Source of the DNA: an uncultured Selenomonadales bacterium | GTDB lineage: Bacteria > Bacillota > Negativicutes > Selenomonadales > Selenomonadaceae | NCBI GenBank assembly: GCA_937877565.1 | Contig: CALFJB010000056.1 | Span: forward strand, 11,151 to 75,150 | DNA length: 64,000 nucleotides | Direction of reading: 5' to 3' | In this document: positions 2,499-63,571 of the stretch, one piece after another | Position numbering within the stretch: position 1 is the first letter of the stretch | How the letters are laid out: every line of letters starts with the position of its first letter | Notes under the pieces: model-generated | What the model saw: only the letters and a program-made list of their open reading frames with translations | Databases searched by the model: none | Told to the model about the DNA's origin: nothing | Translations under genes and position numbers: made by a program

Positions 2499-2519
2499 TT
2501 CCTAATCCCTAGCCCCTAA
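2461..2519. repeat. heptamer array (TTAGGGA ... CCCTAAC/CCCTAAT/TCCTAAT/CCCTAGC)
   Basis: Read directly; followed by the conserved leader CGACCGAAGGGAG (2523-2535) and the pfp start codon. Confidence 0.85.
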
Positions 2520-5210: not shown

Positions 5211-5254
5211 TATTTTTCCAAATTTGAAAATTTTTAAATTGATTAAATTTCAAA

Positions 5255-5290
5255 TCCCTAATCCTTAGTCCCTATTTCCTAGCCCCTAAC
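5255..5290. repeat. heptamer array (TCCCTAA TCCTTAG TCCCTAT TTCCTAG CCCCTAA)
   Basis: Read directly; lies between the comM stop and the MATE gene start. Confidence 0.8.
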
Positions 5291-12822: not shown

Positions 12823-12847
12823 TTAATTCGCTCCCTTCGGTCGCTCA

Positions 12848-12884
12848 TTAGGGGTTAGGGATTAGGGGCTAGGGATTAGGGATT
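12848..12884. repeat. heptamer array (TTAGGGG TTAGGGA TTAGGGG CTAGGGA TTAGGGA)
   Basis: Read directly; between the mnmG stop and the purF start. The adjacent leader 12831-12843 is the complement of CGACCGAAGGGAG. Confidence 0.85.
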
Positions 12885-24615: not shown

Positions 24616-24674
24616 TAAACTCCACGACCTTAAACTCTCTCTTACTATCTCTATTCAAGCTGCTCCTCAAATTC
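24616..24674 (+). repeat. left copy of a perfect 59-bp direct repeat (partner 54342-54400)
   Basis: Both copies read TAAACTCCACGACCTTAAACTCTCTCTTACTATCTCTATTCAAGCTGCTCCTCAAATTC. This copy supplies the last 7 codons and stop of the acyl-CoA synthetase gene on the opposite strand. Confidence 0.95.
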
Positions 24675-27015: not shown

Positions 27016-28236
27016 TTAAATATCAGCGATGAACAGGTTTTCGTCGTCTGGCATTGCGGAATTTTCATTTTCGGGATTGAGATTTAAAAGTTGGACAGGG
27101 GCGGTTAAATCATAATCAAAACCAGTAGCAGAGACGAACGGAATATAGCGAACAGTGCCGCTTGTTACGCCGTACAAATTCGTTTCAAAGGTGACTCTAC
27201 CTCTTGAATAATAAGTAGTTATTTTTGTTCCGTTTTCAATAGCTGTAACTGTGGGAGTATCCCTTAGAATCAGCAAATCTGAATTTTGATTAAAGCCGTA
27301 AAAATTCAGCGTTGCTTTAGATTTATCAAAAATAGCAATAGTATTATTGCCTTCGGCGGTGCAAAGTGAATAATTGCCACGAGAAGAGTACTCTTTTAAA
27401 CCGATGAACTGATAACCGTGCGCTGTGGTGTCAATCGTTGCATTTTTAGCAAAACTATGAGTACTAAAAAGCGTACAATGTTGCCCTGTGTTTAAGTATA
27501 AATTAGACTCGCGTGCCTTAAGGCTGCAATAATCGCCGGAATTGTTAAAATAATACGCATTGTCTAAAGTGACGTGGTCGCCGCTGTTTGTAACCCTTCC
27601 ATAATTACAATAAACGCTGTCGCCGGTATTTGTACAAAAGGGAGTATAAAAATTAGAACTTTGAATACTCACATTGTTGCCGCTATTTGAAACTGAAGAA
27701 TACGTATATATTTTAGTGTCCGAGTCATAGTCAGTGCAACTATCGTTGACGATTATTGAACAAGACGCGCCGCTGTTTGTAATTGTTTTTGCGCCGCTGT
27801 AATTAAATGTGCCCTTCGCCGAAATAGTTACACTGTCGCCGGTATTTAAAATTGAATCGTGCCCATTGCCGCAGGCAATGCTGACGCTGTCGCCGATATT
27901 TTCTATTGTGTCGTCGCCCGCGCCGGTTACGATTGTTACCGCGTCCAAACTATTTCTTACCACGTCGTTATATTCGCCGGTATGAATTTGCTCAAAATCT
28001 GAATTGATTATACTGACTGCGCGGCTTTCAGCGTATATGACGTTGTCCGGCACTATCACAACGTCGTCAGTTTCTACTTTTTCAATCGCAGTTAAAGTGT
28101 TGTCAGAAAGGCCTGCAACGTGCGCCACGAAAACCGCCACGTCTGAATCTGCCGCCAATGGATTTACGTTGCTGATGTTTTTCGTTACTTCCGCGCCGTT
28201 CGCCTTCCTCGTCGTGTAATTTATCGAATTTGCCAT
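27016..28236 (-). CDS. phage protein: small-paralog N-domain fused to a beta-helix-like repeat domain
   Basis: N-terminal 60 aa are paralogous to the 66-aa protein upstream. They are followed by more than 8 repeats of N(S/T)GD.(V/C)(S/T)(I/L). Confidence 0.6.
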   Translation of the reverse strand: MANSINYTTRKANGAEVTKNISNVNPLAADSDVAVFVAHVAGLSDNTLTAIEKVETDDVVIVPDNVIYAESRAVSIINSDFEQIHTGEYNDVVRNSLDAVTIVTGAGDDTIENIGDSVSIACGNGHDSILNTGDSVTISAKGTFNYSGAKTITNSGASCSIIVNDSCTDYDSDTKIYTYSSVSNSGNNVSIQSSNFYTPFCTNTGDSVYCNYGRVTNSGDHVTLDNAYYFNNSGDYCSLKARESNLYLNTGQHCTLFSTHSFAKNATIDTTAHGYQFIGLKEYSSRGNYSLCTAEGNNTIAIFDKSKATLNFYGFNQNSDLLILRDTPTVTAIENGTKITTYYSRGRVTFETNLYGVTSGTVRYIPFVSATGFDYDLTAPVQLLNLNPENENSAMPDDENLFIADI

Positions 28237-28237
28237 T

Positions 28238-28438
28238 TTAATCCCCCAATTCAGGTATTTCTAAATCACTCTTCGATACTTTTTCAATTTTTTCTACAGA
28301 ATTGTTGCTCAATCCATTCAACGCCACTATAAAACTTGACAGCTCGTTATTCGTCGCGTTCGGATTTACATTGCTGATGTTGCGGGTTACTTCCTTGCCG
28401 TTCCCGCGTTTTGTTGTTACTTTTAATGTTGTTGACAT
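28238..28438 (-). CDS. small phage protein, DUF1659/DUF2922-like paralog
   Basis: MSTTLKVTTKRGNGKEVTRNISNVNPNATNNELSSFIVALNGL aligns with the N-terminus of the 406-aa protein. Confidence 0.6.
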   Translation of the reverse strand: MSTTLKVTTKRGNGKEVTRNISNVNPNATNNELSSFIVALNGLSNNSVEKIEKVSKSDLEIPELGD

Positions 28439-28463
28439 TTTTAATTTCTCCTTTCAGTCGAAA

Positions 28464-28584
28464 TTAGGTGTTAGGAATTAGGTGTTAGGAATTAGGTGTT
28501 AGGAATTAGGTGTTAGGTGTTAGGTGTTAGGTATTAGGGATTAGGGATTAGGGAAGTGTAAAACCTAAAACCTAAAACCTAAAC
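28464..28584. repeat. heptamer array forming an imperfect hairpin (TTAGGTG/TTAGGAA/TTAGGGA arm, CCTAAAA arm)
   Basis: Read directly; about 17 units. It overlaps the stop codon of the fiber gene and is followed by leader 28447-28461. Confidence 0.9.
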
Positions 28585-31500
28585 AGTAAAGCACGGCACA
28601 AATCCATACTGCAAGCACGGATTATCTGCATACATCCTGCCCATATACAATCCTAAATAATTTGTACCGTCCGTCGAACGACTCCAATTTCCAAAATATA
28701 GGTACAAGTGTCCCTCATACGTCATCGTCTGAAATGTATTCCCCGCTGCAAAAAAATCATACCGCTCTTGAAATGAATAATCTTCACTGTAACCCGACGG
28801 CAGCCAACTTGCATGCGTCGTCCCCCGCCATTCGTACCACGACATTCGCCATATCTTCTTTATTTCATATTCCCTGCCATTGTACTTTTTGCACTCCCTT
28901 ATATACGCCGCGGGTCCTCCATCTATCAAACTGTAAAAATTGTCTGGATCGTAATTAAATGTAAACGCCGCGCCATCACTGCCCGTCATTCCTTCACTAA
29001 AATTCAGCGGCGATAATACCTCCCATTGCGTAAGATGAGAGCCGGCCGTCCTAAATACCGCAAAATGTGCCCGCTTATCGCCTTCAATCGTCGCGTTGTG
29101 ATTTATTCCCATCAGTACCGCCACTAATTCTGTACCGCTTCCAAAACTTAAATCGCCCAAACTGCCTTTTACCGTCAGCTTTTTAGTTTCGCCCACGTCA
29201 AAATTTTCCGCCAGCGTTCCATTACGCGCCCACGTCGCTATCTTCGCCCAACTTAAATCATTCAACCTCAACGCTATTTTTAGCGGAACAATTCTAAAAT
29301 GACGCGAACGCTTATAATTGGCAGTCTCACTTAGATATATTTCAATGCTATATTCTATATCCGTTCGGGCTACATAATCCGGCGAATCTAAAAGCGTTTC
29401 TCCTTCTTCCCAAGTTTCTGCAGTAATGTGATATGACCTTATACCCGTCAACGTCAGCTTACCTGCCGTGCTGTCAAATGTCGATTCAAAAAAATAATTC
29501 CACGCTTTATGAAGTGTCTTTGTTATAATGCCGTCGCCGGTTTTACTTGTAACTGTAAAAGTGCGCGTCAGCTTCTTTGGCGTAAAATTTGTACGGTAGT
29601 AAATTGATTCAGCGGGTACGCCGCCAATTACTTCAAAAGTGCTGCCGTCGCTGACTGTAACCGTGAATGACGGTTCAGCTTTTTCAATCGTGAAGGTAAA
29701 AGTTTTTGCGCCGTAACTGCCATCAGCCCACGTGCAACAATTTCGCGGCGTCAATGTTATTTCGTAACTGCCCGCGTTCGTAAATGAAGTTGCCGCGTCT
29801 TTCGTCCCGCCGCCTGTACAGAATAAAAATAAACCATTCGTTGCCAAGTCTGAATCGCCCGCAATCGCTGAAAAGCCTTCAGTCCATTTGTGCGCCGTCC
29901 CGTCGTAAGTTATCGTTACATCCTGCGCGAGCGTGCTGAAATAATCCGGCAGTGCGTACGGCTCCAAATTTACCAAAATACTTTTATCAGCAGTCGTTCC
30001 ATCAGACCACGTGTAATTTGTTTTATCTTTCAAACTGACAGTGCTTGCTTTTATTTTTGACGTGTGAGAATCATCGAACCAAGACGATACTTTTGATTCA
30101 ACGACGGACACGGTAGCACCGAAATAAAAGCCGTTGGCGTTTGCATCTCTCCCGTTGGTAGTGTTTGCCTTCGTCATTAAATTCACGTCGTACCCGTTCA
30201 AAACTACGTACCAAGACATTTTACTTGAAGTTACAACCTGATAAGTTGAGCCGGTGGGAATAGGAATTGCCTGCCCGCCAATTTCCCAATGTATTTCGTA
30301 AGTTGCCGCAGTCAAGCCGTCGAATTGGTAACAAGTTGGTTTTTTCAAAGTGAAAGTTGCCGTATAATTTCCAACGTTCGCCGCCGAATAGACGCCGCCC
30401 AGTGTCATTAAAGTTTCATCGTAATTTTCAAACTCTAAAACTTTTGTACTGCCATCTGAAACAAAGTAAGTTGAAGTCGCCGCCGGGCGTGCAACTGTCG
30501 CCTTCAAAATTTTAAAATCCACGTAAATTGGGTCAGTTGCGCCGTCGTCTTCCCATTCGCAGCTGTCATTGGGCGTAAAATAGCAGGTATAATCGCCGGG
30601 CAAAATCATTCCAACATAGCCCGTGCCTTCAACGTAACCATCGCCGTAACGTTGAAATTCCCTGCCGCTCCAATTCGCAACCGTCGCCGAATGATATTTT
30701 CCGTCGTACGTGTGAACCGTCGTAGTTATAATTGGCTTAGCAATCGGCTTGCGGTTAATCGTCCACGTTACATTTTTAGCAGTTGTGGTTCCATCAGACC
30801 ACGTGTAATTTTCCTTCGGCGTTATTGTTGCCGTATAAGTGCCGGCGTTTATCGCTGAATTGCCGGTTATGTCGTGGTACGTTGAATCAAAGTTTTGAAT
30901 CGTAGGTCTTTGAGTCCTGCCAAGATAGTAAGTCAAAGTCCCAACTTGTTCAAAGCCGCTTGACATTTCCTCCGTCAATTTCGCCCGTGTAATTTGCCAC
31001 GTTAAATCGTGTGGTACGCGTGCATATGCTACTTGCCCGCCGAAATATGTATTTACATTATCTTTCAGCGTCAAAGTTATTGTATAGTTGCCAACATTTG
31101 CAGCTGAAGTGTCGCCGGTTATGGTACACCATTTTTGATAATAAGTTAAATTGTATTCGCTAAGTATTGAGCCGCTCAACTTATAAACAAGCTCCGGCGT
31201 AAATTCCGCGCCGTTGTATTCGTATTCGGTGTACTTCAACGACGGCGATTTTATTTCAAGTGCTTTAATTTTCCAATTCAAAGTTATTGGCGCGGTAGTT
31301 CCATCAGTCCACGTGTAACTTGCATCTTTGAGCGTGAAAGTCAAAGAATAATCGCCGACTGTTGTAGCCTTCCACGTTCCTTCCGCCGTCATTAATTCTT
31401 CATTGTAATTTCTGACAGGCGCGGTTTGTTCTTCGCCGCTGTAATTTAAACTGTAAGAAGCTGTCGTGAAAGGCCATTTCGGCGGGGTAACTTTGTTCAG

Positions 31501-33387
31501 TGAAATGCTCCAGTCCAAATTCACGTTGTCTGTCGTTAAATCTTCCCAAACGTGGTTAGTATCTTTCAGCGCGAAAGTAACGGTATAATCGCCCGCCGCC
31601 TTCGCCGTGATTGTCCCGCTGCGCGTCATATAACTTGAATTGTAGCCGTTAATTACGACAGTTTGATTTGAGCCGGTGTAACTCAAAAGATTATTTTCAA
31701 GCGTTGGCTTAGCAAGTGGCGCGGGGTCGATTTTCCATTCAACGTCTTTTGCAGTTGTCGTCCCGTCGTTCCACTTCATATTAGTTTGCGGCGAAATTTT
31801 TAAAGTATAAGTACCGGCGTTTTTAGCTGAAGTCGTACCGCTCAAAACGTGAATTCTATAATCGTAATGCTGAATTTTTGGAGCCAAATTAGAGCCGGTG
31901 TAAGTCAAAGTTCCAACCTGCGCGAAGCCGCTGGATTGACTTGCCGACAAAACGACTTCTTCCATATGCCATTCAATCGTTTTATTTGAAGTGGTATTGT
32001 CGCTCCACACTGTGTTGTTCGTGTCTTTGAGTGAAATAATTGCCGTGTAAGTGCCAACGTTGGTTGCCTTGTTCCCGCTGATTGTTTCATACGTTGAATC
32101 AAAATCGTGGAGGAGAAATTCTTGTTCCGTGCCGTCGTAATAATAGGACAAAACAACTTCGTAGGGGATATTCAATTTCAACTTTTCCATCGTCCAAGTT
32201 ACGCTTTTTGGCGAATTGTCTTGCGTGTCGCTCCATTTGTAACCGCTTTTCGGCGTAAAAGTTACCGTGTAAGTGCCTGCGTTTTTAGCTGAAGTCGTCC
32301 CGCCAATTTCAAGTTGAGTTGAATCGTACAAATACCATATCGGCGTTTGAGTTTCCCCGTTGTAAATCATTTCTACAAGCGAATATGGTACAAATAGAAT
32401 ATCAATTCTTTCATCAACCGGCGGCGTAAATTCTATAATCTGCCAGCCTTTGGCGGTTAAAACTGCGTCTTCGTAACCTGCGGGCGGCGCGGGGACTAAG
32501 CCGCGTTTGCCGTTCGCTGATGAAGTTGGTGCTGAAAAGTCATTCAACGAATTTGATATTGCATTGAATTTACTGTCCGTGTAACTTTTCGCACTGTTCA
32601 AAGTCGCCGTCGACTTCGTATTGATTAACGAAGTCAACGTGTTTTGCAAATTTGTAATTGCAGTTTGCCGGTCTGTTACTTCGTTTGATATTGCGCTTGA
32701 AAGGTTTGTATCTTCGGTTGTACGGTCTGATATTTCCTGATTCAATCTTTGATTTAACGTCGCTAAGTTTGCACTTTGCGTGCTTGCCTGATTCTGTATC
32801 TGATCGCGCAAATTTGTATTCGTGATACTTTGCGCCGCCTGCAAGTCTCCAAGTGAAACCATTATTGCCGCTTGCGTGTCTGCTATTTCTTGACTGCGCG
32901 CCGTACTTTCTGCGTCAATCGCCGCGTTTAAATTTGTTACCGCGTTGTTTAAATCCTCGCGCAGGTTTGCATCTGCCGCCGTCCGATTCGTTATTTCATT
33001 TTCTAACTTTGAATTTAATAGCGCAGTCGCCGCGCGTTGGGCGTCGTCTTTATTTTGAATTTCGGTTTCTAAATTCTCTACCGCGTCATTTAAATCTTGC
33101 CGGACATTCGATATTGAAGCGTTCAATTCGTCCTTCGCCGTATTTATCGCCAAAGTCCGATTTTCAGTTTCAGCAGTCAACGCCGCCATTATTTCCGCGT
33201 CTGCATTCTCCCGCGTCAATTTCTCTAACGTTAAGTCGCTTCCTATTTCTGAATCTGCGTTTTTCCGGTTTTCAATCTCTTCGCCTATTACCTCTTGCAG
33301 GCGCGTTATCTCTCGTTCAAAATACGCCGTAGTTTCGGTCTCTCGCACCTGTTCTTCCGTTACCGGCGTCTTTATTATCTGCCCCAT
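28579..33387 (-). CDS. giant tail fiber/adhesin
   Basis: 1602 aa. N-terminal coiled coil, then the fibre motif GKRGLVPAPPAG, then at least 11 Ig-like repeats (..GTYT.T.T.K....W.DGTT..K.V.W.I..), then a ~300-aa C-terminal domain. Confidence 0.7.
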   Translation of the reverse strand: MGQIIKTPVTEEQVRETETTAYFEREITRLQEVIGEEIENRKNADSEIGSDLTLEKLTRENADAEIMAALTAETENRTLAINTAKDELNASISNVRQDLNDAVENLETEIQNKDDAQRAATALLNSKLENEITNRTAADANLREDLNNAVTNLNAAIDAESTARSQEIADTQAAIMVSLGDLQAAQSITNTNLRDQIQNQASTQSANLATLNQRLNQEISDRTTEDTNLSSAISNEVTDRQTAITNLQNTLTSLINTKSTATLNSAKSYTDSKFNAISNSLNDFSAPTSSANGKRGLVPAPPAGYEDAVLTAKGWQIIEFTPPVDERIDILFVPYSLVEMIYNGETQTPIWYLYDSTQLEIGGTTSAKNAGTYTVTFTPKSGYKWSDTQDNSPKSVTWTMEKLKLNIPYEVVLSYYYDGTEQEFLLHDFDSTYETISGNKATNVGTYTAIISLKDTNNTVWSDNTTSNKTIEWHMEEVVLSASQSSGFAQVGTLTYTGSNLAPKIQHYDYRIHVLSGTTSAKNAGTYTLKISPQTNMKWNDGTTTAKDVEWKIDPAPLAKPTLENNLLSYTGSNQTVVINGYNSSYMTRSGTITAKAAGDYTVTFALKDTNHVWEDLTTDNVNLDWSISLNKVTPPKWPFTTASYSLNYSGEEQTAPVRNYNEELMTAEGTWKATTVGDYSLTFTLKDASYTWTDGTTAPITLNWKIKALEIKSPSLKYTEYEYNGAEFTPELVYKLSGSILSEYNLTYYQKWCTITGDTSAANVGNYTITLTLKDNVNTYFGGQVAYARVPHDLTWQITRAKLTEEMSSGFEQVGTLTYYLGRTQRPTIQNFDSTYHDITGNSAINAGTYTATITPKENYTWSDGTTTAKNVTWTINRKPIAKPIITTTVHTYDGKYHSATVANWSGREFQRYGDGYVEGTGYVGMILPGDYTCYFTPNDSCEWEDDGATDPIYVDFKILKATVARPAATSTYFVSDGSTKVLEFENYDETLMTLGGVYSAANVGNYTATFTLKKPTCYQFDGLTAATYEIHWEIGGQAIPIPTGSTYQVVTSSKMSWYVVLNGYDVNLMTKANTTNGRDANANGFYFGATVSVVESKVSSWFDDSHTSKIKASTVSLKDKTNYTWSDGTTADKSILVNLEPYALPDYFSTLAQDVTITYDGTAHKWTEGFSAIAGDSDLATNGLFLFCTGGGTKDAATSFTNAGSYEITLTPRNCCTWADGSYGAKTFTFTIEKAEPSFTVTVSDGSTFEVIGGVPAESIYYRTNFTPKKLTRTFTVTSKTGDGIITKTLHKAWNYFFESTFDSTAGKLTLTGIRSYHITAETWEEGETLLDSPDYVARTDIEYSIEIYLSETANYKRSRHFRIVPLKIALRLNDLSWAKIATWARNGTLAENFDVGETKKLTVKGSLGDLSFGSGTELVAVLMGINHNATIEGDKRAHFAVFRTAGSHLTQWEVLSPLNFSEGMTGSDGAAFTFNYDPDNFYSLIDGGPAAYIRECKKYNGREYEIKKIWRMSWYEWRGTTHASWLPSGYSEDYSFQERYDFFAAGNTFQTMTYEGHLYLYFGNWSRSTDGTNYLGLYMGRMYADNPCLQYGFVPCFTV

Positions 33388-33425
33388 TCTTTCACCACCG
33401 TTTTATTTATTTTTATCTTTTTTAT

Positions 33426-33496
33426 GTACTTTCTTTCCATTCGAAAAAAGAAAGTACCATGCGCGGCTTGCAAATGCGAGGAGTACGAGCATTTGC
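33426..33496 (-). repeat. stem-loops HP1 (33426-33457) and HP2 (33470-33496) upstream of the fiber gene
   Basis: In mRNA sense HP2 reads GCAAATGC-TCGTACTCCTC-GCATTTGC. This is the same loop as at 354-380, with a compensatory stem change. Confidence 0.7.
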
Positions 33497-33497
33497 T

Positions 33498-33540
33498 CCT
33501 AACACCTAACACCTAAAACCTAACAGCTAACACCTAAAAC
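33498..33540. repeat. heptamer array (CCTAACA/CCTAAAA/CCTAACAG)
   Basis: Read directly; encodes the last residues (LGVSC stop) of the 392-aa ORF. Confidence 0.85.
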
Positions 33541-34698
33541 ATATCCAAACACTTCCGCCCCGCCTTCTACTTCAATCCTGCCGCTCACTTCACGTAATGT
33601 ATCACCCAGCGTCCTATACTTAAACCGCGTCTTCTCCAATTCAGAAAAATCTAACGTCATCATCTGCCAATTCTCCGCCGCGTAATATTCATAGCTCGCC
33701 ACTATTTCTAACCCCGCCGACGCCGTCAGTTTCAAACTCGAAATTCCTGTATCCAATTCATAGTCAAAAAATGGCAAGCCTCCTATTTCCAAATGTAACG
33801 TGTCCTGCGCCACGTACCTATCCGGCAAATATATCGTCTGCTCAATTCCCGCCGTTTGCCCCAATATCACATTTTCGGCGCGTTTAGTTTCCATATTCAA
33901 ATTTACCCACGCCTTCAACTCTCGACCTTTCAACGGCTCGTGTTTTACTAACAAATAGCAAGTTTTCAAGTCCGCCGAATAGTTTTCTGTCTTCGTGTAA
34001 AACGTCCGAACATTCGCCGCATTTTTATTTGAGTCCTCTACATATTCAATTTTTAAACTGTCGATTGACGCCGCGTCCGTCCCGTCCAACGTCGTTACTA
34101 CAAAGTTTGTACGGAACTGAATCGCTTGCGCCACTTGCCCTTCAAATAAAGTGTAATAGTCCCAGTCGCTCCATTCGCCGCTAATCTTTCTAACCCGCGC
34201 ACTCGTTACCGCCGTTGCATTGTTTTCAGTCGTCTGACGTTCAGTCAATTTTACGATTCTTGCATTTTCCGCCAACTCAAAAATAGGCGAATAACTTAAA
34301 CGCGTGTAAACGTCGTTGTAGCTTGAAACTTTCAACGCCAATTTGATTTTCGGCATCACTTCAAAATCAAACGGCGCACTCAACGCAATTATCGGGTAAA
34401 CTTTTTTATTGACGAACGCCGGAATATTTTCCAGCTCCAACAATTCGCCGACCGTGTTCCCGTATTCCATCACGTCTTCAAATTCCCCACGGTACGGGTA
34501 CGGGTCCAATATCCCGTTCACAAATCTATACAGCGCGTCTTCTATCTTGAATATTATTCGCCGCATTGTTCCCGGCGGTTCTGTCCCGCCTATTTCAAAG
34601 CCTCTACAATTTGTCTCGTACGTTAAATCAAATGGTGCTAGCGATTTTATTAAGCCGCGTTTCAAAAATTTGTAACTGCTGCTCCCGTAATTTTTCAT
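33520..34698 (-). CDS. hypothetical phage structural protein (392 aa)
   Basis: Sits between the small-gene cassette and the fiber gene; ATGA overlap with the upstream gene; no family recognised. Confidence 0.55.
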   Translation of the reverse strand: MKNYGSSSYKFLKRGLIKSLAPFDLTYETNCRGFEIGGTEPPGTMRRIIFKIEDALYRFVNGILDPYPYRGEFEDVMEYGNTVGELLELENIPAFVNKKVYPIIALSAPFDFEVMPKIKLALKVSSYNDVYTRLSYSPIFELAENARIVKLTERQTTENNATAVTSARVRKISGEWSDWDYYTLFEGQVAQAIQFRTNFVVTTLDGTDAASIDSLKIEYVEDSNKNAANVRTFYTKTENYSADLKTCYLLVKHEPLKGRELKAWVNLNMETKRAENVILGQTAGIEQTIYLPDRYVAQDTLHLEIGGLPFFDYELDTGISSLKLTASAGLEIVASYEYYAAENWQMMTLDFSELEKTRFKYRTLGDTLREVSGRIEVEGGAEVFGYVLGVSC

Positions 34699-34889
34699 AA
34701 CTCCTCGCCGTCCATATAGTTTTCTATGTCAAAATTCTTCCAGTCGAACTTGCTATTGTCCGTAAATATCGCCGTCACTGCCTTTAATATTTCCGCAGTT
34801 TCAGCCGCCGTCTTCCCGTCCAATACCTTCAATATTTCGGTTATCGCCTTGCGGCTGCTGTCTTTTTGTAATATTTTTTCCAATTTCAT
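34695..34889 (-). CDS. hypothetical small phage protein (64 aa)
   Basis: Start ATG 34889 lies 8 nt after GGAGG; the stop overlaps the next start (ATGA). Confidence 0.5.
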   Translation of the reverse strand: MKLEKILQKDSSRKAITEILKVLDGKTAAETAEILKAVTAIFTDNSKFDWKNFDIENYMDGEEL

Positions 34890-34922
34890 TTTTATTACCT
34901 CCAACCTAAAACCTAAAAAAGA

Positions 34923-34944
34923 AATGACTGCACACGCCCGCGCC
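34923..34944 (+). repeat. left arm of a perfect 22-bp inverted repeat (AATGACTGCACACGCCCGCGCC)
   Basis: Exact reverse complement of 36053-36074. Confidence 0.95.
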
Positions 34945-34952
34945 CAATTATT

Positions 34953-35195
34953 CTATCTTAAATCTAAATTAGTTGTTGTTTTGCGAATTGTTCGCGCGCC
35001 GGTAAATTGTAAAAAGCCTGCTCCGCCTTTATCGCCGAGTAAAGCTTGTGTAGTTCTCCCAATCGCACTTACCGCGTTAATTTGCGCCGCTGTCAACCCG
35101 GTTTTCGGGCTGTCTACTGTCAAAACGCGCGTGTCGTTATCAGTAAACTTCATATCTATTTTCAATTCGCTTACTTGCGTTACTTTGTCTGCCAT
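34953..35195 (-). CDS. small phage protein, paralog family member (80 aa)
   Basis: Good RBS (AGGAGGAG); shares the pattern beta-strand, D/G-K/R, T, P, A-rich helix with its neighbours. Confidence 0.6.
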   Translation of the reverse strand: MADKVTQVSELKIDMKFTDNDTRVLTVDSPKTGLTAAQINAVSAIGRTTQALLGDKGGAGFLQFTGARTIRKTTTNLDLR

Positions 35196-35207
35196 TTAAA
35201 TCTCCTC

Positions 35208-35414
35208 CTATTCCGCCAATAGTTCATTCACGCTTTGTTCATCCCTAATTACCGTGTCCGAATATGTATTGGTCGTCAAATTGATTAAAGCGCGGGCAAA
35301 TGTGTCTATGTTCGCGGCGGTTGCTGCAGGGTTCGCGTGCGTCATCGTTTTTACCGATTCATTACCCAGCGCGTCTGTACTTTTTAAAATCAACATCCTA
35401 TTCACTGTCGCCAT
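35208..35414 (-). CDS. small phage protein, paralog family member (68 aa)
   Basis: ALGNESVKTMTHANPAATAANIDTFARALINLT resembles the 66-aa protein. Leader and upstream stop context are duplicated from the neighbouring gene. Confidence 0.6.
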   Translation of the reverse strand: MATVNRMLILKSTDALGNESVKTMTHANPAATAANIDTFARALINLTTNTYSDTVIRDEQSVNELLAE

Positions 35415-35426
35415 TTAAATCACCGC

Positions 35427-35672
35427 CTATTCCACGTTCAAATTAATTTCTTCTTCTTCGACGGTTACTACGGTTGCCGCGCTGATACTTGCAAACGGAC
35501 TGCCCGCCTCTGAAATGTACGTGTCTGATATCGCCGACGCGTCGAAGTTTTTAATTTTTGTACGCAATGTTTCGATAACGATTGTATCACTTGCGAATGG
35601 TCCAAATTCCAATTCGCGCTTGTCGTCGTTCGCAAATGCATTTGTTATTTTAAATTTTGTCGTATTCGCCAT
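35427..35672 (-). CDS. small phage protein, paralog family member (81 aa)
   Basis: Preceded by the conserved leader TCGACTGAAAGGAGA; acidic C-terminal tail. Confidence 0.6.
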   Translation of the reverse strand: MANTTKFKITNAFANDDKRELEFGPFASDTIVIETLRTKIKNFDASAISDTYISEAGSPFASISAATVVTVEEEEINLNVE

Positions 35673-35698
35673 TTTTTATTTCTCCTTTCAGTCGAAAT

Positions 35699-35752
35699 AG
35701 GATACAGGATACAGCTTAAAAAAATGTTTCCTGTCTCCTGTTCCCTGTTTCC
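35699..35752. repeat. heptamer hairpin of a second unit type (AGGATAC x2 arm, CCTGTCT/CCTGTTC/CCTGTTT arm)
   Basis: Read directly; intercistronic. Confidence 0.8.
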
Positions 35753-35757
35753 TAAAA

Positions 35758-36033
35758 TCAAGGCTCTTCCTCTTCTACTTCTACTACGCTATATTCTACT
35801 ACCTTTTTGCCGGTTGTATCGTCATAGCGTCCACCGGCTAACCCTGTTACAAACGCGCTGTATACTGTCTTTGCCGCCGCTAAATCCGCGTTCGTCTTGA
35901 TTCCAGGCATTGAAAATGTCTTCTTTCCTGCTGCCGTATCGCCGCTCTGCGCTATGTTCCCGTCCATCGTCAACGCTACGTCAAATTTCACTGTCGCCGC
36001 TTGCGGACTGCTCCACTGCTTTATTGTTGCCAT
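35758..36033 (-). CDS. small phage protein, paralog family member (91 aa)
   Basis: GKKTFSMPGIKTNADLAAAKTVYSAFVTGLAG fits the family pattern; acidic tail EVEEEEP. Confidence 0.6.
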   Translation of the reverse strand: MATIKQWSSPQAATVKFDVALTMDGNIAQSGDTAAGKKTFSMPGIKTNADLAAAKTVYSAFVTGLAGGRYDDTTGKKVVEYSVVEVEEEEP

Positions 36034-36052
36034 TTTTCCTTCCTCCTCAATA

Positions 36053-36074
36053 GGCGCGGGCGTGTGCAGTCATT
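36053..36074 (-). repeat. right arm of the perfect 22-bp inverted repeat
   Basis: GGCGCGGGCGTGTGCAGTCATT on the plus strand, about 10 nt upstream (mRNA sense) of the Shine-Dalgarno sequence (GAGGAGG, 36037-36043) of the 91-aa gene. Confidence 0.95.
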
Positions 36075-36099
36075 CCGCTTCCTTATTAAGGTTTTATAT

Positions 36100-36252
36100 C
36101 TTCTTTTCTTTTTCCAATGCAAAAAAGAAAAGAAGCAAAAGAAAAGTGCATTTAACGGCGCGTCAAGGCTTTGGCGTTCTCGTATCTTCTAATCTGCTGC
36201 CGCCCCTGCCTTACGTAATTCCCACTCTTGCTGACGCAAGCTGATGACGCGC
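36100..36252 (-). promoter_or_regulatory. structured sheath-to-cassette spacer
   Basis: 14-bp hairpin 36100-36135 (CTTCTTTTCTTTTT/AAAAAGAAAAGAAG). A 9-bp stem GGCGCGTCA (36157-65) / TGACGCGCC (36244-52) encloses 78 nt. Confidence 0.6.
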
Positions 36253-36255
36253 CTT

Positions 36256-36285
36256 CCTGTCCCCTGTCTCCTGTCCCCTGTCTCC
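36256..36285. repeat. heptamer array (CCTGTCC/CCTGTCT)
   Basis: Read directly; abuts the sheath stop codon. Confidence 0.8.
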
Positions 36286-37931
36286 TATATAAACAACGTC
36301 TCAAAATAACTCGTGTCTACTTCCATCTCAAATACTATCTCCTGCGCAGGCGGCGGACTCAACCAGTACAATCTAAAGTGTAACGCCCCACTCATCAAAT
36401 TCGCCGTCGTATTCTCATCTTCCGGAAATTCAAGCCTTGCTCCTAATAACGCTCCTCGCGCCGCCAAACTGCTCAAATATATGTTCGCACTCTGCAATAT
36501 CCCTTCTATGTTCCGCCTATTTATCGGATTGTCCAAATTCGTAAAATAAGTTATCGTCAAATACGCCGTCAAAAAATTCAACATCCTACGCGTCGCTATA
36601 AATTCGTCCTTATAGTCTTCGCCGGGTCCTACACTCGTATAATTACCCCAATATTTCCAGCTCCCCCAACTAAATACCGTCCCTACTCCATTTGCATTTA
36701 ACAAATTAGCCTGCTCCTGCAACAATATCATTTCCGTTCCATCTGCTGTCACCGCGCTGTCAATTTGCAATCGCTGATTCGACGGGCTCACATACGGCAA
36801 CCCGTCATTTTGACTGTCTACCTGATTCATCAACGCCGCTAAATGTGTTGACAAGTAATATTGCACGCCGTCCAACGCAACTTTAGGATAACAAACTATT
36901 AAATGCGGGTCGGACAAATTGCTCTGATTCTTAAATTCTATCGCCGCTTGATACGTCGTATTTCGTGCGCTGTCCAAGTCCGCTATCGCCACACCTTTAA
37001 ACACGCCGTCTATCGACTTCGCCTTATTCGTCAACGCCGCCGCCACGCTATTTTGTAAACTGTACTTAGGCGCAATTAACGTTCCAGGTACTATGTTAAA
37101 GCGCGCGTAAATCCCACCCACTTTTTCGATATTGTCTATTATATCCTGCGCCGTCACTGCAGACGGATCCAATTCGTGGTACGTCACTTTCACTTTGTCG
37201 TCAATTATCAAACTTTCATCCAAAATTGTTACCTGCGCGAAACTATCGCCGCTTTGAATATCAAAATCCAAACTGCGCAAATTATTTATACCGCGCGTCG
37301 TCACTTCCACTGATTCTAAAATGGCGTCTTCAGGTAATACGTACTTGCCATTTGTTAAATTAGCGTAAGCAACTTCAACTACTACCGGTTCGCCGCCAAG
37401 TGCCGTTTCAGTTTTACGGTAACTGATTTTCACAGTCCCGCCCAATAAAATTTTGCCGCTTGCATTTGAAATTGTAACGGACTTTTCAGTTATGGCTTCG
37501 TCGCCTTCGCCGGTCGTTACTTCCGCCGTCGTAATGTCATCAGCTAAATCAATATCGCCTTGATTGACGCCGGTCGTAACTGCAACCGTGTCCAAAATGA
37601 CTTCGCCTTCAAGTTTGAAACTTGCCTGCCCTTCAATTTCTTTTTCAATTTCCTTGAAATGTTTGCTGCCGTTCAGCGCGTTAATGCAGATAACCGGCGC
37701 AACGTTGTACAATTTGAAAAAGGTTGCTGCCACTTCCTCAAGCGTGTAATTGTCAAAGTCGCCGACGTAACCGAAATTTTCCACAAATTCCTTGTACGTG
37801 TAGCAGATAACCGGTTTGTCCTGCGCGATTTTCGCAGTGCCTATCGCAACGCAAATGCCGCTGTCAATTTGTACAGGAGCTTGAATTTGCGTCGCCACTT
37901 CACTAATATAAATTCCGTGTCTTATTGCCAT
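36285..37931 (-). CDS. contractile tail sheath protein
   Basis: N-terminus MAIRHGIYISEV..VAIGTA..KPVICYTYKEFVENFGY..YTLEEVA and C-terminal ..LPYVSPSNQ..GNYTS..RRML..DNPINRRN match the remembered Mu/P2-type sheath pattern. Confidence 0.7.
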   Translation of the reverse strand: MAIRHGIYISEVATQIQAPVQIDSGICVAIGTAKIAQDKPVICYTYKEFVENFGYVGDFDNYTLEEVAATFFKLYNVAPVICINALNGSKHFKEIEKEIEGQASFKLEGEVILDTVAVTTGVNQGDIDLADDITTAEVTTGEGDEAITEKSVTISNASGKILLGGTVKISYRKTETALGGEPVVVEVAYANLTNGKYVLPEDAILESVEVTTRGINNLRSLDFDIQSGDSFAQVTILDESLIIDDKVKVTYHELDPSAVTAQDIIDNIEKVGGIYARFNIVPGTLIAPKYSLQNSVAAALTNKAKSIDGVFKGVAIADLDSARNTTYQAAIEFKNQSNLSDPHLIVCYPKVALDGVQYYLSTHLAALMNQVDSQNDGLPYVSPSNQRLQIDSAVTADGTEMILLQEQANLLNANGVGTVFSWGSWKYWGNYTSVGPGEDYKDEFIATRRMLNFLTAYLTITYFTNLDNPINRRNIEGILQSANIYLSSLAARGALLGARLEFPEDENTTANLMSGALHFRLYWLSPPPAQEIVFEMEVDTSYFETLFI

Positions 37932-37955
37932 TAAAATTTCTCCTTTCAGTCGAAA

Positions 37956-38145
37956 TAGGGACTAGGGACTAATCCTTAACCCCTAACACCTAATCCCTAA
38001 CCCCTAATCCCTAATCCTTAACCCCTAACCCCTAATCCTTAACCCCTAATCCTTAACCCCTAACCCCTAATCCTTAACCTCTAATCCTTAACCCCTAACC
38101 CCTAATCCTTAACCCCTAACCCCTAATCCTTAACCCCTATAACCT
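37956..38145. repeat. longest heptamer array (TAGGGAC x2, then about 24 units of CCTTAAC/CCCTAAC/CCCTAAT)
   Basis: Read directly; runs into the last codons (LGYRG stop) of the upstream gene; leader 37939-37953 precedes the sheath start. Confidence 0.9.
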
Positions 38146-38564
38146 AAGGGCGTCTGTATTCGGTACGTTAATAAAAATTGGCTGAAAATGAAATCGCTGT
38201 CATCCTTTTCAACCGTTGCAAATTCAACCGGCAAGTCTAAGGCTGCCGCGCCAACTAATTTGTTACGTAAAATCCATTCTCTAACTTGTTCAGCTAGATT
38301 TAAATTATCCTGCCACGCGGCGGAAGTTTCGGCGTACGTGCCTAAGCTCAATAAAACAAGCGCGGTTGAAATGTCCGCGCCGTCGGTAGTTGCCAAAAGT
38401 TCCACGCAAATTAACGGGTATGACGCCTCAATTTTATCTGCCGGTACTGTTTGTACGAAAGTTTGAACGTGATTCAAGCCCTCGTACTGCGCCGGGAATT
38501 TGAAATGTGCGGAGGCGTCGCGCAGTTTTTCAGCTAAATGTTCAATAAGTTTTAAAGGAGTCAA
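38130..38564 (-). CDS. neck/tail-terminator-like protein (lambda U position)
   Basis: 144 aa, positioned after the Z-like gene; called from position and size only. Confidence 0.4.
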   Translation of the reverse strand: MTPLKLIEHLAEKLRDASAHFKFPAQYEGLNHVQTFVQTVPADKIEASYPLICVELLATTDGADISTALVLLSLGTYAETSAAWQDNLNLAEQVREWILRNKLVGAAALDLPVEFATVEKDDSDFIFSQFLLTYRIQTPLGYRG

Positions 38565-39079
38565 AATATCGCCACGCTTTCAAGGTTAGCCGCCAAATGT
38601 TTATCAAAACGCTGCTGAATTTTCCCTAAAATCAGATTGGAAATAGGCGGCGGTTTTAACATACCGGGCGCGCTAACAGTTTTAAGATGTCGAATTGGTA
38701 GACGCCGCTTGCCAATTCTTTCAAAAACTGCGCCGTTGTAGATGAACGCACGGCTGATGAAACCGCCTTGCCCGCGAACGACTTGAGCGAAGATGCCGCG
38801 TTTAGGCGGACGCTTAAGACGTTTACGGGGATTGATTTTAAACTTTTCGAGGGGATTAGCCGCGCCTTTGGAGGAAAGTTCGCCGGTTAGACCGCTGACT
38901 TTAATTTTTAAAGGACGAGTGCCAACGCCGGGATTGGTATAACGTTGTTTGATGCCGCTGGACGCGTCGGTTTTCGTGTCTTTGAGAGTTTGGCGAATAG
39001 ATTTAGAGATGGCGCGGATAATTGCGTTGGAATTGGCGCGCAAAGTTGGGATTGAACGCGGCGAAATTTTAAGTTGCAT
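38561..39079 (-). CDS. lambda gpZ-like tail completion protein
   Basis: ..KINPRKRLKRPPKRG..VVRGQGGFISRAFI.NG.VFERIGKRRLPI..K parallels lambda Z (..RRRRKKGQRS..VVGNRRIPGAFIQQLKNGRWHVMQRVGKNRYPI). Confidence 0.55.
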   Translation of the reverse strand: MQLKISPRSIPTLRANSNAIIRAISKSIRQTLKDTKTDASSGIKQRYTNPGVGTRPLKIKVSGLTGELSSKGAANPLEKFKINPRKRLKRPPKRGIFAQVVRGQGGFISRAFIYNGAVFERIGKRRLPIRHLKTVSAPGMLKPPPISNLILGKIQQRFDKHLAANLESVAIF

Positions 39080-39101
39080 AAGAATTTCTCCTTCGTCGAA
39101 A

Positions 39102-39176
39102 TTAGCTGTTAGCTGTTAGCTGTTAGCTGTTAGGTATTAGGGATTAGGGAAGTGTAAAACCTAAAACCTAAACCCT
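39102..39176. repeat. heptamer hairpin array (TTAGCTG x4, TTAGGTA, TTAGGGA x2 arm; CCTAAAA arm)
   Basis: Read directly; overlaps the last codons (GFRF stop) of the 116-aa gene. Confidence 0.9.
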
Positions 39177-50911: not shown

Positions 50912-50998
50912 CCTAAAATAAGGGCTAAGGTTTAAGGGTTAAGGGAAAAATCCATAATCCTTAGTCCCTAATCATTAATCCCTAATCCTTAATCCCTG
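50912..50998. repeat. heptamer hairpin array (CTAAGGT/TTAAGGG arm; TCCTTAG/TCCCTAA/TCATTAA/TCCTTAA arm)
   Basis: Read directly; overlaps the stop codon of the DnaC-like gene. Confidence 0.85.
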
Positions 50999-61757: not shown

Positions 61758-61823
61758 AGGGATTAGGTGTTAGGTGTTAGGTTTTACACTTTCCTAATAC
61801 CTAACCGCTAAAACCTAAAACCT
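61758..61823. repeat. heptamer hairpin array between atpA and atpG
   Basis: AGGGATTAGGTGTTAGGTGTTAGGTTTT arm, loop, then CTAATACCTAACCGCTAAAACCTAAAACCT arm. Confidence 0.9.
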
Positions 61824-63345: not shown

Positions 63346-63394
63346 ATTTTTTGAGTCACCTTCTTTTGGGATTAAGGCTAATTTTTTTTATTTT

Positions 63395-63571
63395 TTGTAT
63401 GTACTTTCTTTGTGTGCGTCAAAGAAAGTACCAAAGAAAGACGCTTTATCGCGCGTCCGCCGCTTGGGTTTACGCACGCTCCAACCGTGTGAGCCGCCAG
63501 AGGCGGCGCGTAGTTTTTCGCACGCTCCAACTTTAACTTTTTACGGCGGCACAGGACGCGCTTTTTTTTTC
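63395..63571 (+). repeat. structured intergenic repeat, copy B: HP1 (63401-63432) and Rep-X (63451-63562) plus T9
   Basis: Same orientation as copy A but antisense to the atp operon. Closing stem GCGCGTCC/GGACGCGC carries a compensatory change relative to copy A. ORF 63395..63757 is an artefact of this repeat. Confidence 0.75.

What the first reader, a model, noticed from the sequence alone, without database searches (positions are those of the whole stretch)
34923..36074. Perfect 22-bp inverted repeat precisely bracketing the four-gene small-protein cassette downstream of the sheath gene
AATGACTGCACACGCCCGCGCC at 34923-34944 is the exact reverse complement of 36053-36074. The right arm lies about 10 nt upstream (mRNA sense) of the Shine-Dalgarno sequence (GAGGAGG, 36037-36043) of the first cassette gene (91 aa). 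The left arm lies 9 nt after the stop of the last cassette gene (80 aa). A 22-bp exact inverted repeat is not expected by chance in 64 kb. I see three readings. (a) An invertible or mobile cassette: inversion would switch the four genes off, but no invertase is in the window. (b) A long-range 22-bp RNA duplex in the late transcript that would be an ideal RNase III site, excising or stabilising a 1.1-kb sub-transcript. (c) Ends of a cassette inserted where tube and tape-measure genes would normally be. The adjacent sheath-proximal spacer (36075-36284) is itself densely structured.
Basis: seen in the sequence. Interest (0 to 1): 0.7.

Follow-up and report, generated by a model that had tools for sequence, protein, structure and literature searches.

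The report
Conserved long-range helix closing a phage gene cassette
A perfect 22-base inverted repeat brackets four small tail-module genes of a defective prophage, and every related phage lineage examined keeps such a repeat there with a different sequence, so it most likely pairs in the mRNA to cut out or stabilise that four-gene message.

Summary
34923-34944 is the exact reverse complement of 36053-36074. It is the longest perfect inverted repeat in the window and is not expected by chance.

Homologous four-gene cassettes were found in five lineages (first-gene protein 65-100% identical in four; not scored for L019). All carry a 22-32 bp inverted repeat at the same place: just upstream of the Shine-Dalgarno sequence of gene 1, and downstream of the stop of gene 4. 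The outer arm sequences differ and covary. The inner GC-rich core (CGCCCGC/GCGGGCG) is kept.

Folding the whole 1.2-1.3 kb sense RNA closes the helix in every lineage. Most mismatches are G-U wobbles on the sense strand. All 20 contigs show one orientation, and no recombinase, target-site duplication or extra copy was found.

Best reading: a long-range mRNA helix that closes a four-cistron loop. An invertible DNA segment is the main rival and is not excluded.

The missing tube, tape-measure and baseplate genes reflect a separate deletion or module swap upstream of the repeat, not an insertion bounded by it. Nothing was tested experimentally.

The parts
36053..36074 (-). 5' arm of the helix in the sense (minus-strand) RNA: AAUGACUGCACACGCCCGCGCC. 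The inner half is the conserved C-rich core.
34923..34944 (-). 3' arm of the helix in the sense RNA: GGCGCGGGCGUGUGCAGUCAUU.
36051..36076 (-). Extended 5' strand of the predicted 26-bp contiguous helix: 22 Watson-Crick pairs, plus U.G and A-U at the inner end and G.U and G-C at the outer end.
   Evidence: (MFE and centroid)
34921..34946 (-). Extended 3' strand of the predicted 26-bp helix.
36042..36048 (-). Shine-Dalgarno GAGGAGG of gene 1, 4 nt downstream of the 5' arm.
   Evidence: read from the sequence
35758..36033 (-). Cassette gene 1, 91 aa. Conserved family with no Pfam or PHROG hit. The AlphaFold model (pLDDT 79) has no fold match in the PDB.
35673..35757 (-). Spacer between genes 1 and 2. 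It holds a heptamer-repeat hairpin followed by the 19-nt leader TTCGACTGAAAGGAGAAAT. It is about 71 nt longer than the 13-nt spacer in L010/L011, so it is a window-specific insertion inside the loop.
35427..35672 (-). Cassette gene 2, 81 aa, no family hit.
35208..35414 (-). Cassette gene 3, 68 aa, Pfam DUF1659 (E 2e-5).
34953..35195 (-). Cassette gene 4, 80 aa, Pfam DUF2922 (E 1.9e-6). It is 60-94% identical across lineages.
34695..34889 (-). First gene downstream of the helix (64 aa as called). Its start codon lies 33 nt after the 3' arm. It is conserved next to the cassette in all lineages.
33520..34698 (-). Conserved 392-aa gene that always follows the cassette (51-91% identical in relatives).
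36077..36284 (-). Structured spacer between the sheath gene and the 5' arm. It holds CCTGTCC heptamers, a 9-bp-closed domain and a 14-bp AAAGAAAAG hairpin. Homology to L002/L003 ends at 36275 and homology to L010/L011 starts at 36111, so the rearrangement junction lies here, outside the repeat.
36285..37931 (-). Tail sheath gene, directly upstream.

Best explanation
The two arms are the strands of a long-range RNA helix in the sense (minus-strand) late transcript. When the 3' arm is transcribed it pairs with the 5' arm made about 1.1 kb earlier. This closes a loop that holds exactly four cistrons with their ribosome-binding sites. The helix is 22-32 bp long, which is the size range of an RNase III substrate. 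I infer that RNase III cuts in the variable, AU-richer outer half. This would detach the four-gene message from the flanking genes: the sheath gene upstream in this window, fibre genes upstream in complete relatives, and the 64-aa and 392-aa genes downstream. The conserved, almost pure G-C inner 10-12 bp would then hold the new 5' and 3' ends together, shielding them from 5' and 3' exonucleases, much as in the stems flanking precursor ribosomal RNA. The result would be expression of the four small proteins set independently of their neighbours. What is shown: the repeat, its conservation and covariation, its fixed position relative to the SD and the stop codon, and its thermodynamic dominance. 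What is inferred: co-transcription of both arms, cleavage by RNase III, and the effect on stability.
For: (1) An inverted repeat brackets the homologous four genes in every relative for which both flanks are on the contig. L010/L011 carry the identical 22-mer. L012-L016 have a 25-bp core. L018 has 12 bp, a U.U mismatch, then 11 bp. L019 has 32 nt and L022 has 29 nt. (2) The arm sequences differ between lineages and change on both strands together. The core-anchored table shows AT, GC, CG and TA alternating at most outer positions, and only the inner core CGCCCGC/GCGGGCG is kept. L019 has matching insertions of about 7 nt in both arms relative to L022. (3) The cassette flanks pair far better than shuffled flanks: z is -3.5 to -9.2, and 0 of 300 shuffles reach the observed energy in any of 8 loci. 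(4) Folding the whole 1.2-1.3 kb sense RNA closes the helix in all lineages, with mean pair probability 0.92-1.00. (5) The position is fixed. The 5' arm ends 15-24 nt before the ATG of gene 1, 0-13 nt from its SD. The 3' arm starts 8-24 nt after the stop of gene 4 (155 nt in L018). Both arms lie outside the cassette ORFs, though in L012 the outer 4 nt of the 5' arm overlap the stop codon of the upstream gene. (6) There is a strand bias. Of 8 internal non-Watson-Crick positions, 5 are G.U in the sense RNA, 2 are A.C and 1 is U.U. All three mismatches in L019 are U.G. In the window the helix grows from 22 to 26 bp through G.U pairs only on the sense strand. The sense duplex is more stable than the antisense duplex in 7 of 8 loci. 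(7) The arms are 22/22 identical between the window and L010/L011, although the cassette DNA is only 87-89% identical and the adjacent spacer bases differ. (8) There is precedent. B. subtilis RNase III cuts 10-36 bp duplexes formed by mRNA segments up to 505 nt apart (PMC11780869). 5'/3' UTR pairing controls decay of hbs (PMC5737220) and icaR (PMC3868564).
Against: There is no RNA data, so co-transcription of the arms and any cleavage are inferred. L018 and L019 have terminator-like hairpins just upstream of the 5' arm, so transcript architecture may differ between lineages. The G.U versus A.C tally (5 to 2) is not significant on its own, and L022 has a tandem C.A/A.C. Covariation with perfect arms is also what gene conversion during DNA inversion would produce. 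A conserved sequence core could be a protein-binding site rather than a GC clamp. Separations of 1.0-1.2 kb exceed the mRNA examples documented so far. The host's RNase III is not in the window.
Confidence: 0.6

Rival explanations
1. Invertible DNA segment (inverton). A site-specific recombinase encoded elsewhere flips the 1.1-kb segment between the arms. This would turn the four genes antisense to the late operon, giving phase-variable expression of tail accessory proteins. Repeated inversion would keep the arms identical.
For: The arms are perfect or near-perfect inverted repeats of typical inverton length flanking a discrete segment. A short sequence core is conserved across lineages and could be a recombinase site. 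The position, distal in the tail module, recalls the Mu G and P1 C segments (my own knowledge). Putative viral invertons have been reported in metagenomes (PMC13501310). Gene conversion would also explain covariation.
Against: No recombinase, resolvase or integrase domain was found in any called gene of the window, or in the flanks of the related loci that were inspected. All 20 contigs that cross an arm, from at least 12 samples, show the same orientation, and no contig breaks at an arm. All four ORFs point one way. I saw no promoter or alternative coding end of the kind that makes known invertons useful; the reverse-strand ORFs listed were not compared between lineages. Arms with 1-3 mismatches persist, and these are mostly G.U in the sense RNA. 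The arms always avoid the cassette ORFs and sit next to the SD and stop codon, which inversion does not require.
Confidence: 0.15
2. Structural relic. The four-gene cassette was once inserted into the loop of an ordinary intergenic hairpin, and the split arms have no present function of their own.
For: The same genome shows exactly this geometry elsewhere. L010 has an intact local heptamer hairpin after the 392-aa gene, whereas in the window the two halves are separated by the 1602-aa gene.
Against: A functionless repeat would decay. Here 22-32 bp of complementarity persists in five lineages whose intergenic DNA is otherwise unalignable and whose proteins are down to about 60% identical. Changes are compensatory on both arms, and the arms are invariant between the window and L010/L011.
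Confidence: 0.07
3. Paired DNA operator sites bound by a regulator that loops the DNA, or some other protein-recognised DNA motif.
For: The GC-rich core is conserved at the inner end of both arms.
Against: Protein recognition does not explain why the variable outer 12-20 nt of the two arms stay complementary to each other while differing between lineages. It also does not explain the G.U pattern.
Confidence: 0.05
4. Terminal inverted repeats of a transposable or otherwise mobile cassette.
For: An inverted repeat bounds a compact gene set, and the tube, tape-measure and baseplate genes are missing next to it.
Against: There is no target-site duplication (flanks GAAGCGG and TCTTTTT) and no transposase. 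The window holds only one pair of arms, and there is no hit in 185,579 species genomes. The arm sequence is not conserved between lineages. The cassette keeps the same neighbours (64-aa and 392-aa genes) everywhere and sits after the baseplate genes in complete phages. The rearrangement junction in the window lies outside the arms.
Confidence: 0.03

Closest known systems
Long-range intramolecular RNase III substrates in Firmicute mRNAs (B. subtilis; PMC11780869), and the processing stems that flank 16S and 23S rRNA in precursor transcripts (my own knowledge)
   Same: A duplex of two helical turns or more forms between segments far apart on one transcript. The duplex length here (22-32 bp) falls within the reported 10-36 bp. 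The helix encloses a complete functional unit, as in rRNA precursors.
   Different: Here the enclosed unit is four protein-coding cistrons, 1.0-1.2 kb, which is longer than the 505-nt maximum reported for mRNAs. The helix is conserved with covariation across phage lineages. Cleavage has not been shown.
5'/3' UTR base-pairing in hbs mRNA of B. subtilis (14 bp; PMC5737220) and icaR mRNA of S. aureus (PMC3868564)
   Same: The untranslated regions on either side of the coding sequence pair, and this changes access of ribonucleases. Both are Firmicute systems.
   Different: Those are monocistronic primary transcripts with shorter duplexes. The icaR pairing covers the Shine-Dalgarno sequence and represses translation, whereas here the helix stops 0-13 nt short of the SD in every lineage. 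In at least L012 it is internal to a polycistronic message.
RNase III processing hairpins between genes of phage T7 early and late mRNAs (my own knowledge)
   Same: Phage operon transcripts are cut between genes, and the processed ends remain base-paired and stabilise the messages.
   Different: T7 sites are local hairpins between genes. Here the two strands of the helix lie on opposite sides of four genes.
Invertible tail-fibre segments of phages Mu (G) and P1 (C), and bacterial invertons
   Same: Inverted repeats of about 20-35 bp flank a 1-3 kb segment in the distal tail region.
   Different: Those segments have an adjacent invertase gene, carry alternative coding ends in opposite orientations, and are seen in both orientations. 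None of these was found here.
REP-type extragenic palindromes that stabilise upstream mRNA (my own knowledge)
   Same: They are intergenic hairpins within operons. This genome has its own abundant heptamer-based hairpin family.
   Different: The 22-mer is a unique sequence, is not built from the heptamer unit, and is split around genes.

Membership tests
RNase III long-range processing or stabilising stem | Continuous dsRNA of about two helical turns (20 bp or more) | tested here: met
   26 contiguous pairs in the window. Relatives have 25, 24 (one U.U), 32 and 29 (one 2x2 loop). Duplex energies are -45 to -66 kcal/mol.
RNase III long-range processing or stabilising stem | Pairing conserved through compensatory change | tested here: met
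   Five lineages have different arms that are all complementary. Shuffle z is -3.5 to -9.2.
RNase III long-range processing or stabilising stem | Both strands lie on one transcript | tested here: inconclusive
   All genes are on one strand. The simple scan finds only a weak terminator-like site, which lies inside the 3' arm, and no other site between the arms. In L012 the upstream ORF stops inside the 5' arm, which argues for co-transcription. L018 and L019 have terminator-like hairpins before the 5' arm. There is no RNA data.
RNase III long-range processing or stabilising stem | RNase III-dependent staggered cleavage (2-nt 3' overhang) within the helix | not testable with these tools
   This needs end-mapping with and without rnc, or in vitro cleavage.
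Inverton / site-specific invertible segment | Inverted repeats flanking the segment | tested here: met
Inverton / site-specific invertible segment | Cognate serine or tyrosine recombinase nearby | tested here: not met
   No recombinase Pfam family was found in any called gene of the window or of the related loci inspected. A recombinase acting in trans from elsewhere cannot be excluded.
Inverton / site-specific invertible segment | Both orientations present in populations | tested here: not met
   20 of 20 contigs that cross an arm have the same orientation. Raw reads were not available.
Inverton / site-specific invertible segment | Invertible content acts as a switch (a promoter, or alternative coding ends) | tested here: not met
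   The four complete ORFs all point one way, and both arms are intergenic. Reverse-strand ORFs were listed but not compared between lineages.
TIR-bounded transposable element or MITE | Target-site duplication, multiple copies, and TIR sequence shared between copies | tested here: not met
   No duplication is present. There are two arms only in the window, and 0 hits in genome contigs. The arms differ between lineages.
icaR-type 5'/3' UTR translational repression | The 3' UTR pairs with the Shine-Dalgarno region | tested here: not met
   The helix ends 0-13 nt upstream of the SD in all lineages, and the SD itself is unpaired in the helix.
Heptamer-repeat (REP-like) hairpins of this genome | Arms built from TTAGGNN/CCTAANN 7-nt units | tested here: not met
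   The 22-mer has no 7-nt periodicity and no further copies.

The most novel reading that the evidence does not exclude
The helix may be more than a passive processing stem. It may be the cis-acting half of a self-contained RNA module. In one version the cassette's own DUF1659/DUF2922 proteins act on it. These are relatives of S. aureus SroA/SroB, which are reported to interact and to modulate mRNA decay (bioRxiv 10.1101/2022.10.19.512975). That would autoregulate the stability of the four-gene message. In another version the helix brings the stop codon of gene 4 within a few nucleotides of the ribosome-binding site of gene 1, giving a bacterial 'closed-loop' polycistronic mRNA that recycles ribosomes. 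The split heptamer arrays around other genes in the same prophage hint that enclosing genes in long-range helices could be a general expression strategy in this phage-host group.
Probability: 0.12. Interest if true: 0.8.

Novelty: new variant of a known kind. Interest (0 to 1): 0.58.

Why it matters
Long-range pairing within bacterial mRNAs has only recently been recognised as common, and few cases have evolutionary support. This one has unusually clean comparative evidence. The helix is 22-32 bp and spans 1.0-1.2 kb. It encloses exactly four cistrons and has been maintained by compensatory change in five phage lineages. If it is an RNase III-type stem, it would show how a phage sets the dosage of a gene block inside a long late operon without a separate promoter or terminator. 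It would also give a simple sequence signature, an intergenic inverted repeat placed next to an SD and a stop codon, for finding more such loops. It further cautions that inverted repeats flagged as candidate viral invertons in metagenomes may be RNA structures.

Tried and rejected
DNA search of cultured phages with the region found nothing. Protein searches of the same collection with the 80-aa and 392-aa proteins also found nothing.

IMG/VR scans with the sheath, the 91-aa family and the 392-aa family found no relatives. Both JGI metagenome scans found nothing. A 20-mer of the arm has no match in the GTDB species genomes.

Rfam (gathering threshold) and tRNA scans of the window were empty.

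The function of the cassette proteins could not be established. There was no PHROG or NCBIfam hit for the four, no PDB sequence hit, and no significant fold match for the 91-aa model. The 68-aa and 80-aa proteins show no pairwise similarity.

A MAFFT alignment of the concatenated arms (A4) shifted L019 and was not consistent with the structure. I therefore did not run the count of structure pairs on it, and used a core-anchored gapless table instead.

Contigs ending near the cassette were checked for breaks at the arms, which would be an assembly sign of inversion. L016 starts 12 nt upstream of the 25-bp core helix (1 nt inside the extended 37-nt repeat), at a position that is polymorphic between L012 and L013. 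The other breaks fall inside gene 4 or the next gene, not at the arms.

I considered whether the repeat is two halves of two local hairpins. This was rejected because there are only two copies.

Full report
OBSERVATION

The repeat is exactly as described. AATGACTGCACACGCCCGCGCC at 34923-34944 is the perfect reverse complement of 36053-36074, with 1108 nt between the arms. With up to three mismatches allowed there are only these two copies in the window, and none appeared in 100 shuffles. It is the longest perfect inverted repeat within 6 kb anywhere in the 64 kb.

All genes here are on the minus strand. In order they are:
- a 548-aa tail sheath (36285-37931; PHROG 23, E 5e-68);
- the four small ORFs of 91, 81, 68 and 80 aa;
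- a 64-aa gene, a 392-aa gene and a 1602-aa gene.

Gene 3 is Pfam DUF1659 and gene 4 is DUF2922.

GAGGAGG is at 36042-36048, so the arm ends 4 nt from it. The other arm begins 8 nt after the stop codon.

CONTEXT

The window is a bacterial chromosome from a bioreactor metagenome (ENA ERZ922531, contig k127_22714). Host genes lie on both sides: mnmG, mnmE, uvrD and PTS genes on one, and a PBP and the ATP synthase operon on the other.

Between them lies a prophage-like element bounded by a perfect 59-bp direct repeat (24616-24674 and 54342-54400). The element has a terminase, portal, ClpP protease, capsid, neck and sheath. It has no tube, tape-measure or baseplate gene, no recognisable lysis gene, and no integrase or other recombinase.

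A 93%-identical relative (L002/L003) loses homology right after the sheath stop codon, at window 36275, and continues with different genes. More distant relatives have the usual order of sheath, tube, chaperone and tape measure.

THE KEY RESULT

Homologues of the 91-aa protein (55-100% identity) led to contigs from other samples. A search with the 392-aa protein added a Selenomonadales genome bin (L019). In every one the same gene order recurs: about 90 aa, about 80 aa, DUF1659, DUF2922, about 64 aa, then about 392-470 aa.

In the two loci long enough to show it (L012, L018), this block follows the baseplate genes (gpU, gpW, gpJ, gpI) and fibre-like genes. It is therefore a distal tail module. 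The window's prophage has lost everything between the sheath and this module.

In every lineage with both flanks available, an inverted repeat brackets exactly the four small genes:

| Locus | Helix |
|---|---|
| Window, L010, L011 | identical 22-mer |
| L012-L016 | 25-bp core, CTAAAATAGCGAGAGTGCGCCCGCT |
| L018 | 12 bp, a U.U mismatch, then 11 bp |
| L019 | 32 nt with three mismatches |
| L022 | 29 nt with three mismatches |

Contigs that reach only the 5' side (L020/L021, L024-L026) show the same kind of C-rich element just before the SD. In each locus this repeat is the longest or one of the longest long-range inverted repeats present.

ANATOMY OF THE HELIX

I anchored the arms on the shared inner core (CGCCCGC on the 5' arm, GCGGGCG on the 3' arm). 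In this register the outer 12-20 positions carry different base pairs in different lineages: A-T, G-C, C-G and T-A alternate at most positions, with both strands changed together.

L019 has matching insertions of about 7 nt in both arms relative to L022.

The inner 11-12 bp are 8-10 G-C pairs in every lineage, and the outer part is AU-richer.

The position is constant. The 5' arm ends 15-24 nt before the ATG of gene 1, which is 0-13 nt from its SD. The 3' arm starts 8-24 nt after the stop of gene 4 (155 nt in L018, where heptamer hairpins intervene). It ends 21-74 nt before the next start codon. Neither arm enters a cassette ORF; in L012 the outer 4 nt of the 5' arm overlap the stop codon of the upstream gene.

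STATISTICS AND FOLDING

The 80 nt upstream of gene 1 pair with the 80-190 nt downstream of gene 4 at -46 to -71 kcal/mol. Dinucleotide-shuffled flanks give means of -21 to -36. The z-scores are -3.5 to -9.2, and 0 of 300 shuffles reach the observed value at any of the eight loci.

Folding the complete 1.2-1.3 kb sense RNA closes the helix in the minimum-energy structure of every lineage, with mean pair probability 0.92-1.00. In the window the helix extends to 26 contiguous pairs (36051-36076 with 34921-34946) through G.U pairs that exist only on the sense strand.

RNA OR DNA?

Covariation alone cannot separate an RNA helix from an invertible DNA segment whose arms are homogenised by recombination. 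Six observations favour RNA.

1. Of eight internal non-Watson-Crick positions, five are G.U in the sense RNA, two are A.C and one is U.U. All three mismatches in L019 are U.G. The only polymorphism inside the L012-group helix is an A-to-G change that turns U-A into U.G.
2. The sense duplex is more stable than the antisense duplex in seven of eight loci, by 8 and 13 kcal/mol in the window and L019.
3. All 20 contigs that cross an arm, from at least 12 samples, have the cassette in the same orientation. No contig breaks at an arm.
4. No recombinase is recorded in the window or in the inspected flanks of the relatives.
5. The four ORFs all point one way, and I saw no promoter or alternative coding end that an inversion would switch. 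The reverse-strand ORFs listed were not compared between lineages.
6. The arms stay out of the cassette ORFs and sit next to the SD and the stop codon. That matters for an RNA helix in a translated message but not for recombination.

None of these is decisive. The G.U count is small (5 against 2), and assemblies report only the majority orientation. I put the RNA reading at about 0.6 and the inverton at about 0.15.

MECHANISM (INFERRED)

A duplex of 22-32 bp is a canonical RNase III substrate. In B. subtilis, RNase III cuts 10-36 bp duplexes formed by mRNA segments up to 505 nt apart (PMC11780869). 5'/3' UTR pairing controls ribonuclease access in hbs (PMC5737220) and icaR (PMC3868564).

I propose that the helix forms once the 3' arm is made and is cut in the variable outer half. 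The conserved GC-rich inner half would then keep the new ends of the four-gene message paired and protected from exonucleases. This would uncouple the abundance of that message from the upstream and downstream genes.

Hairpins lie just upstream of the 5' arm in most lineages: the AAAGAAAG-type hairpin in the window, L010, L011, L022 and L024-26, and terminator-like hairpins in L018 and L019. These would protect the 3' end of the upstream fragment. In L012 the upstream ORF ends inside the 5' arm, so there the arm is internal to a polycistronic RNA. That favours processing over a simple pairing of primary-transcript ends.

THE OTHER READINGS

The mobile-cassette reading fails for these reasons:
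- there is no target duplication, no transposase and no extra copy, and the arm has no match in 185,579 species genomes;
- the arms are not conserved between lineages;
- the neighbours are constant;
- the junction that removed the tube-to-baseplate genes lies in 36112-36275, outside the arms.

A functionless relic of insertion into a hairpin loop would not keep 22-32 bp of complementarity through this much divergence. That geometry does occur elsewhere in the same genome, however, and may be how the arrangement arose.

A protein operator pair does not explain the covariation of the outer arms.

WHAT THE CASSETTE ENCODES

This remains unknown. DUF1659 and DUF2922 form the SroA/SroB pair of S. 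aureus. A preprint reports that the two interact and affect sigS mRNA decay (bioRxiv 10.1101/2022.10.19.512975). NCBIfam gives a weak SroA match for the second DUF1659 gene of the window.

In the window, DUF1659 also forms the N-terminus of a 406-aa repeat protein, which suggests a structural or adaptor role in the tail. The 91-aa family gives a confident small beta/alpha model with no match in the PDB.

VERDICT

It is a conserved, covarying long-range helix that closes a four-gene loop. It fits a known kind, long-range RNase III-type or UTR-pairing helices, in a form not described to my knowledge: a multi-cistron loop inside a phage tail operon. Experimental confirmation is lacking.

Noticed in passing
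window 2486-2519, 5253-5289, 12847-12884, 28463-28590, 33498-33543, 37956-38139, 39101-39176, 50919-50997, 61763-61824; also L002:2559-2630, L010:2640-2735, L018:7990-8130: Intergenic arrays of 7-nt units resembling telomere repeats (TTAGGGN, TTAGGTG, CCCTAAN, CCTAACA). They occur in the prophage and between host genes, for example next to mnmG and between the two ATP synthase genes flanking 61763-61824. They are usually arranged as G-rich units, a loop, then C-rich units, giving hairpins. They look like a genome-wide REP-like family built from heptamers, and homology between close relatives breaks at them.
   Followed up: partly
window 28463-28554 and 33498-33543 (flanking the 1602-aa gene 28579-33387); L010:2640-2735: In L010 the site after the 392-aa gene holds one intact local heptamer hairpin. 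In the window the two halves of that hairpin are about 5 kb apart, with the 1602-aa repeat-rich gene between them (19 bp perfect, 40-46 nt at 85-90%). This is a second case of a gene sitting inside a hairpin loop, and a presence/absence polymorphism of a very large tail gene.
   Followed up: partly
window 37936-37954, 35678-35696, 28444-28462 (minus strand): The 19-nt leader TTCGACTGAAAGGAGAAAT, which includes an SD, occurs three times exactly. Each copy lies right after a heptamer array and right before a start codon: the sheath gene, the 81-aa gene and the 66-aa DUF1659 gene. About 0.01 copies are expected by chance. It looks like a portable unit of hairpin plus ribosome-binding site. One copy is part of the 71-nt insertion between cassette genes 1 and 2 that L010/L011 lack.
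   Followed up: partly
window 24616-24674 and 54342-54400: A perfect 59-bp direct repeat overlaps the 3' end of the AMP-binding enzyme gene (24651-26285). It probably marks the attachment sites of the roughly 29.8-kb element. Contig L010 joins the two ends, like an excised or circular form. This places the AMP-binding gene inside the element. No integrase was found.
   Followed up: partly
window 36112-36275, between the sheath gene and the cassette: The prophage has a sheath gene but no tube, tape-measure, baseplate or lysis genes. Close and distant relatives differ in what follows the sheath gene. The element is therefore probably defective, or a mosaic created by recombination at the repeat-rich spacers.
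   Followed up: partly
window 28238-28438 (66 aa) and 27016-28236 (406 aa): There is a second DUF1659 gene, followed by a 406-aa protein. The N-terminus of that protein is another DUF1659 domain, fused to NSGD/NTGD repeats. This small domain of unknown function is thus reused as a module of larger putative tail proteins.
   Followed up: partly
window 36100-36135, 33401-33459, 63371-63459; L010:2862-2893, L018:9781-9816, L006:10470-10503, L022:348-381: A second recurrent intergenic hairpin family (GTACTTTCTTTT, a loop, then AAAAGAAAGTAC, and variants) is shared by the prophage, its relatives and a host intergenic region.
   Followed up: no
window 38130-39079, flanked by 39101-39150 and 37969-38139: The two neck genes (172 aa and 144 aa) are also flanked by complementary heptamer arrays (about 49 nt, 73-76%). 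The 170-nt array upstream of the sheath gene is absent from the 93%-identical relative L002. This may be a by-product of neighbouring hairpins rather than a functional long-range helix.
   Followed up: no
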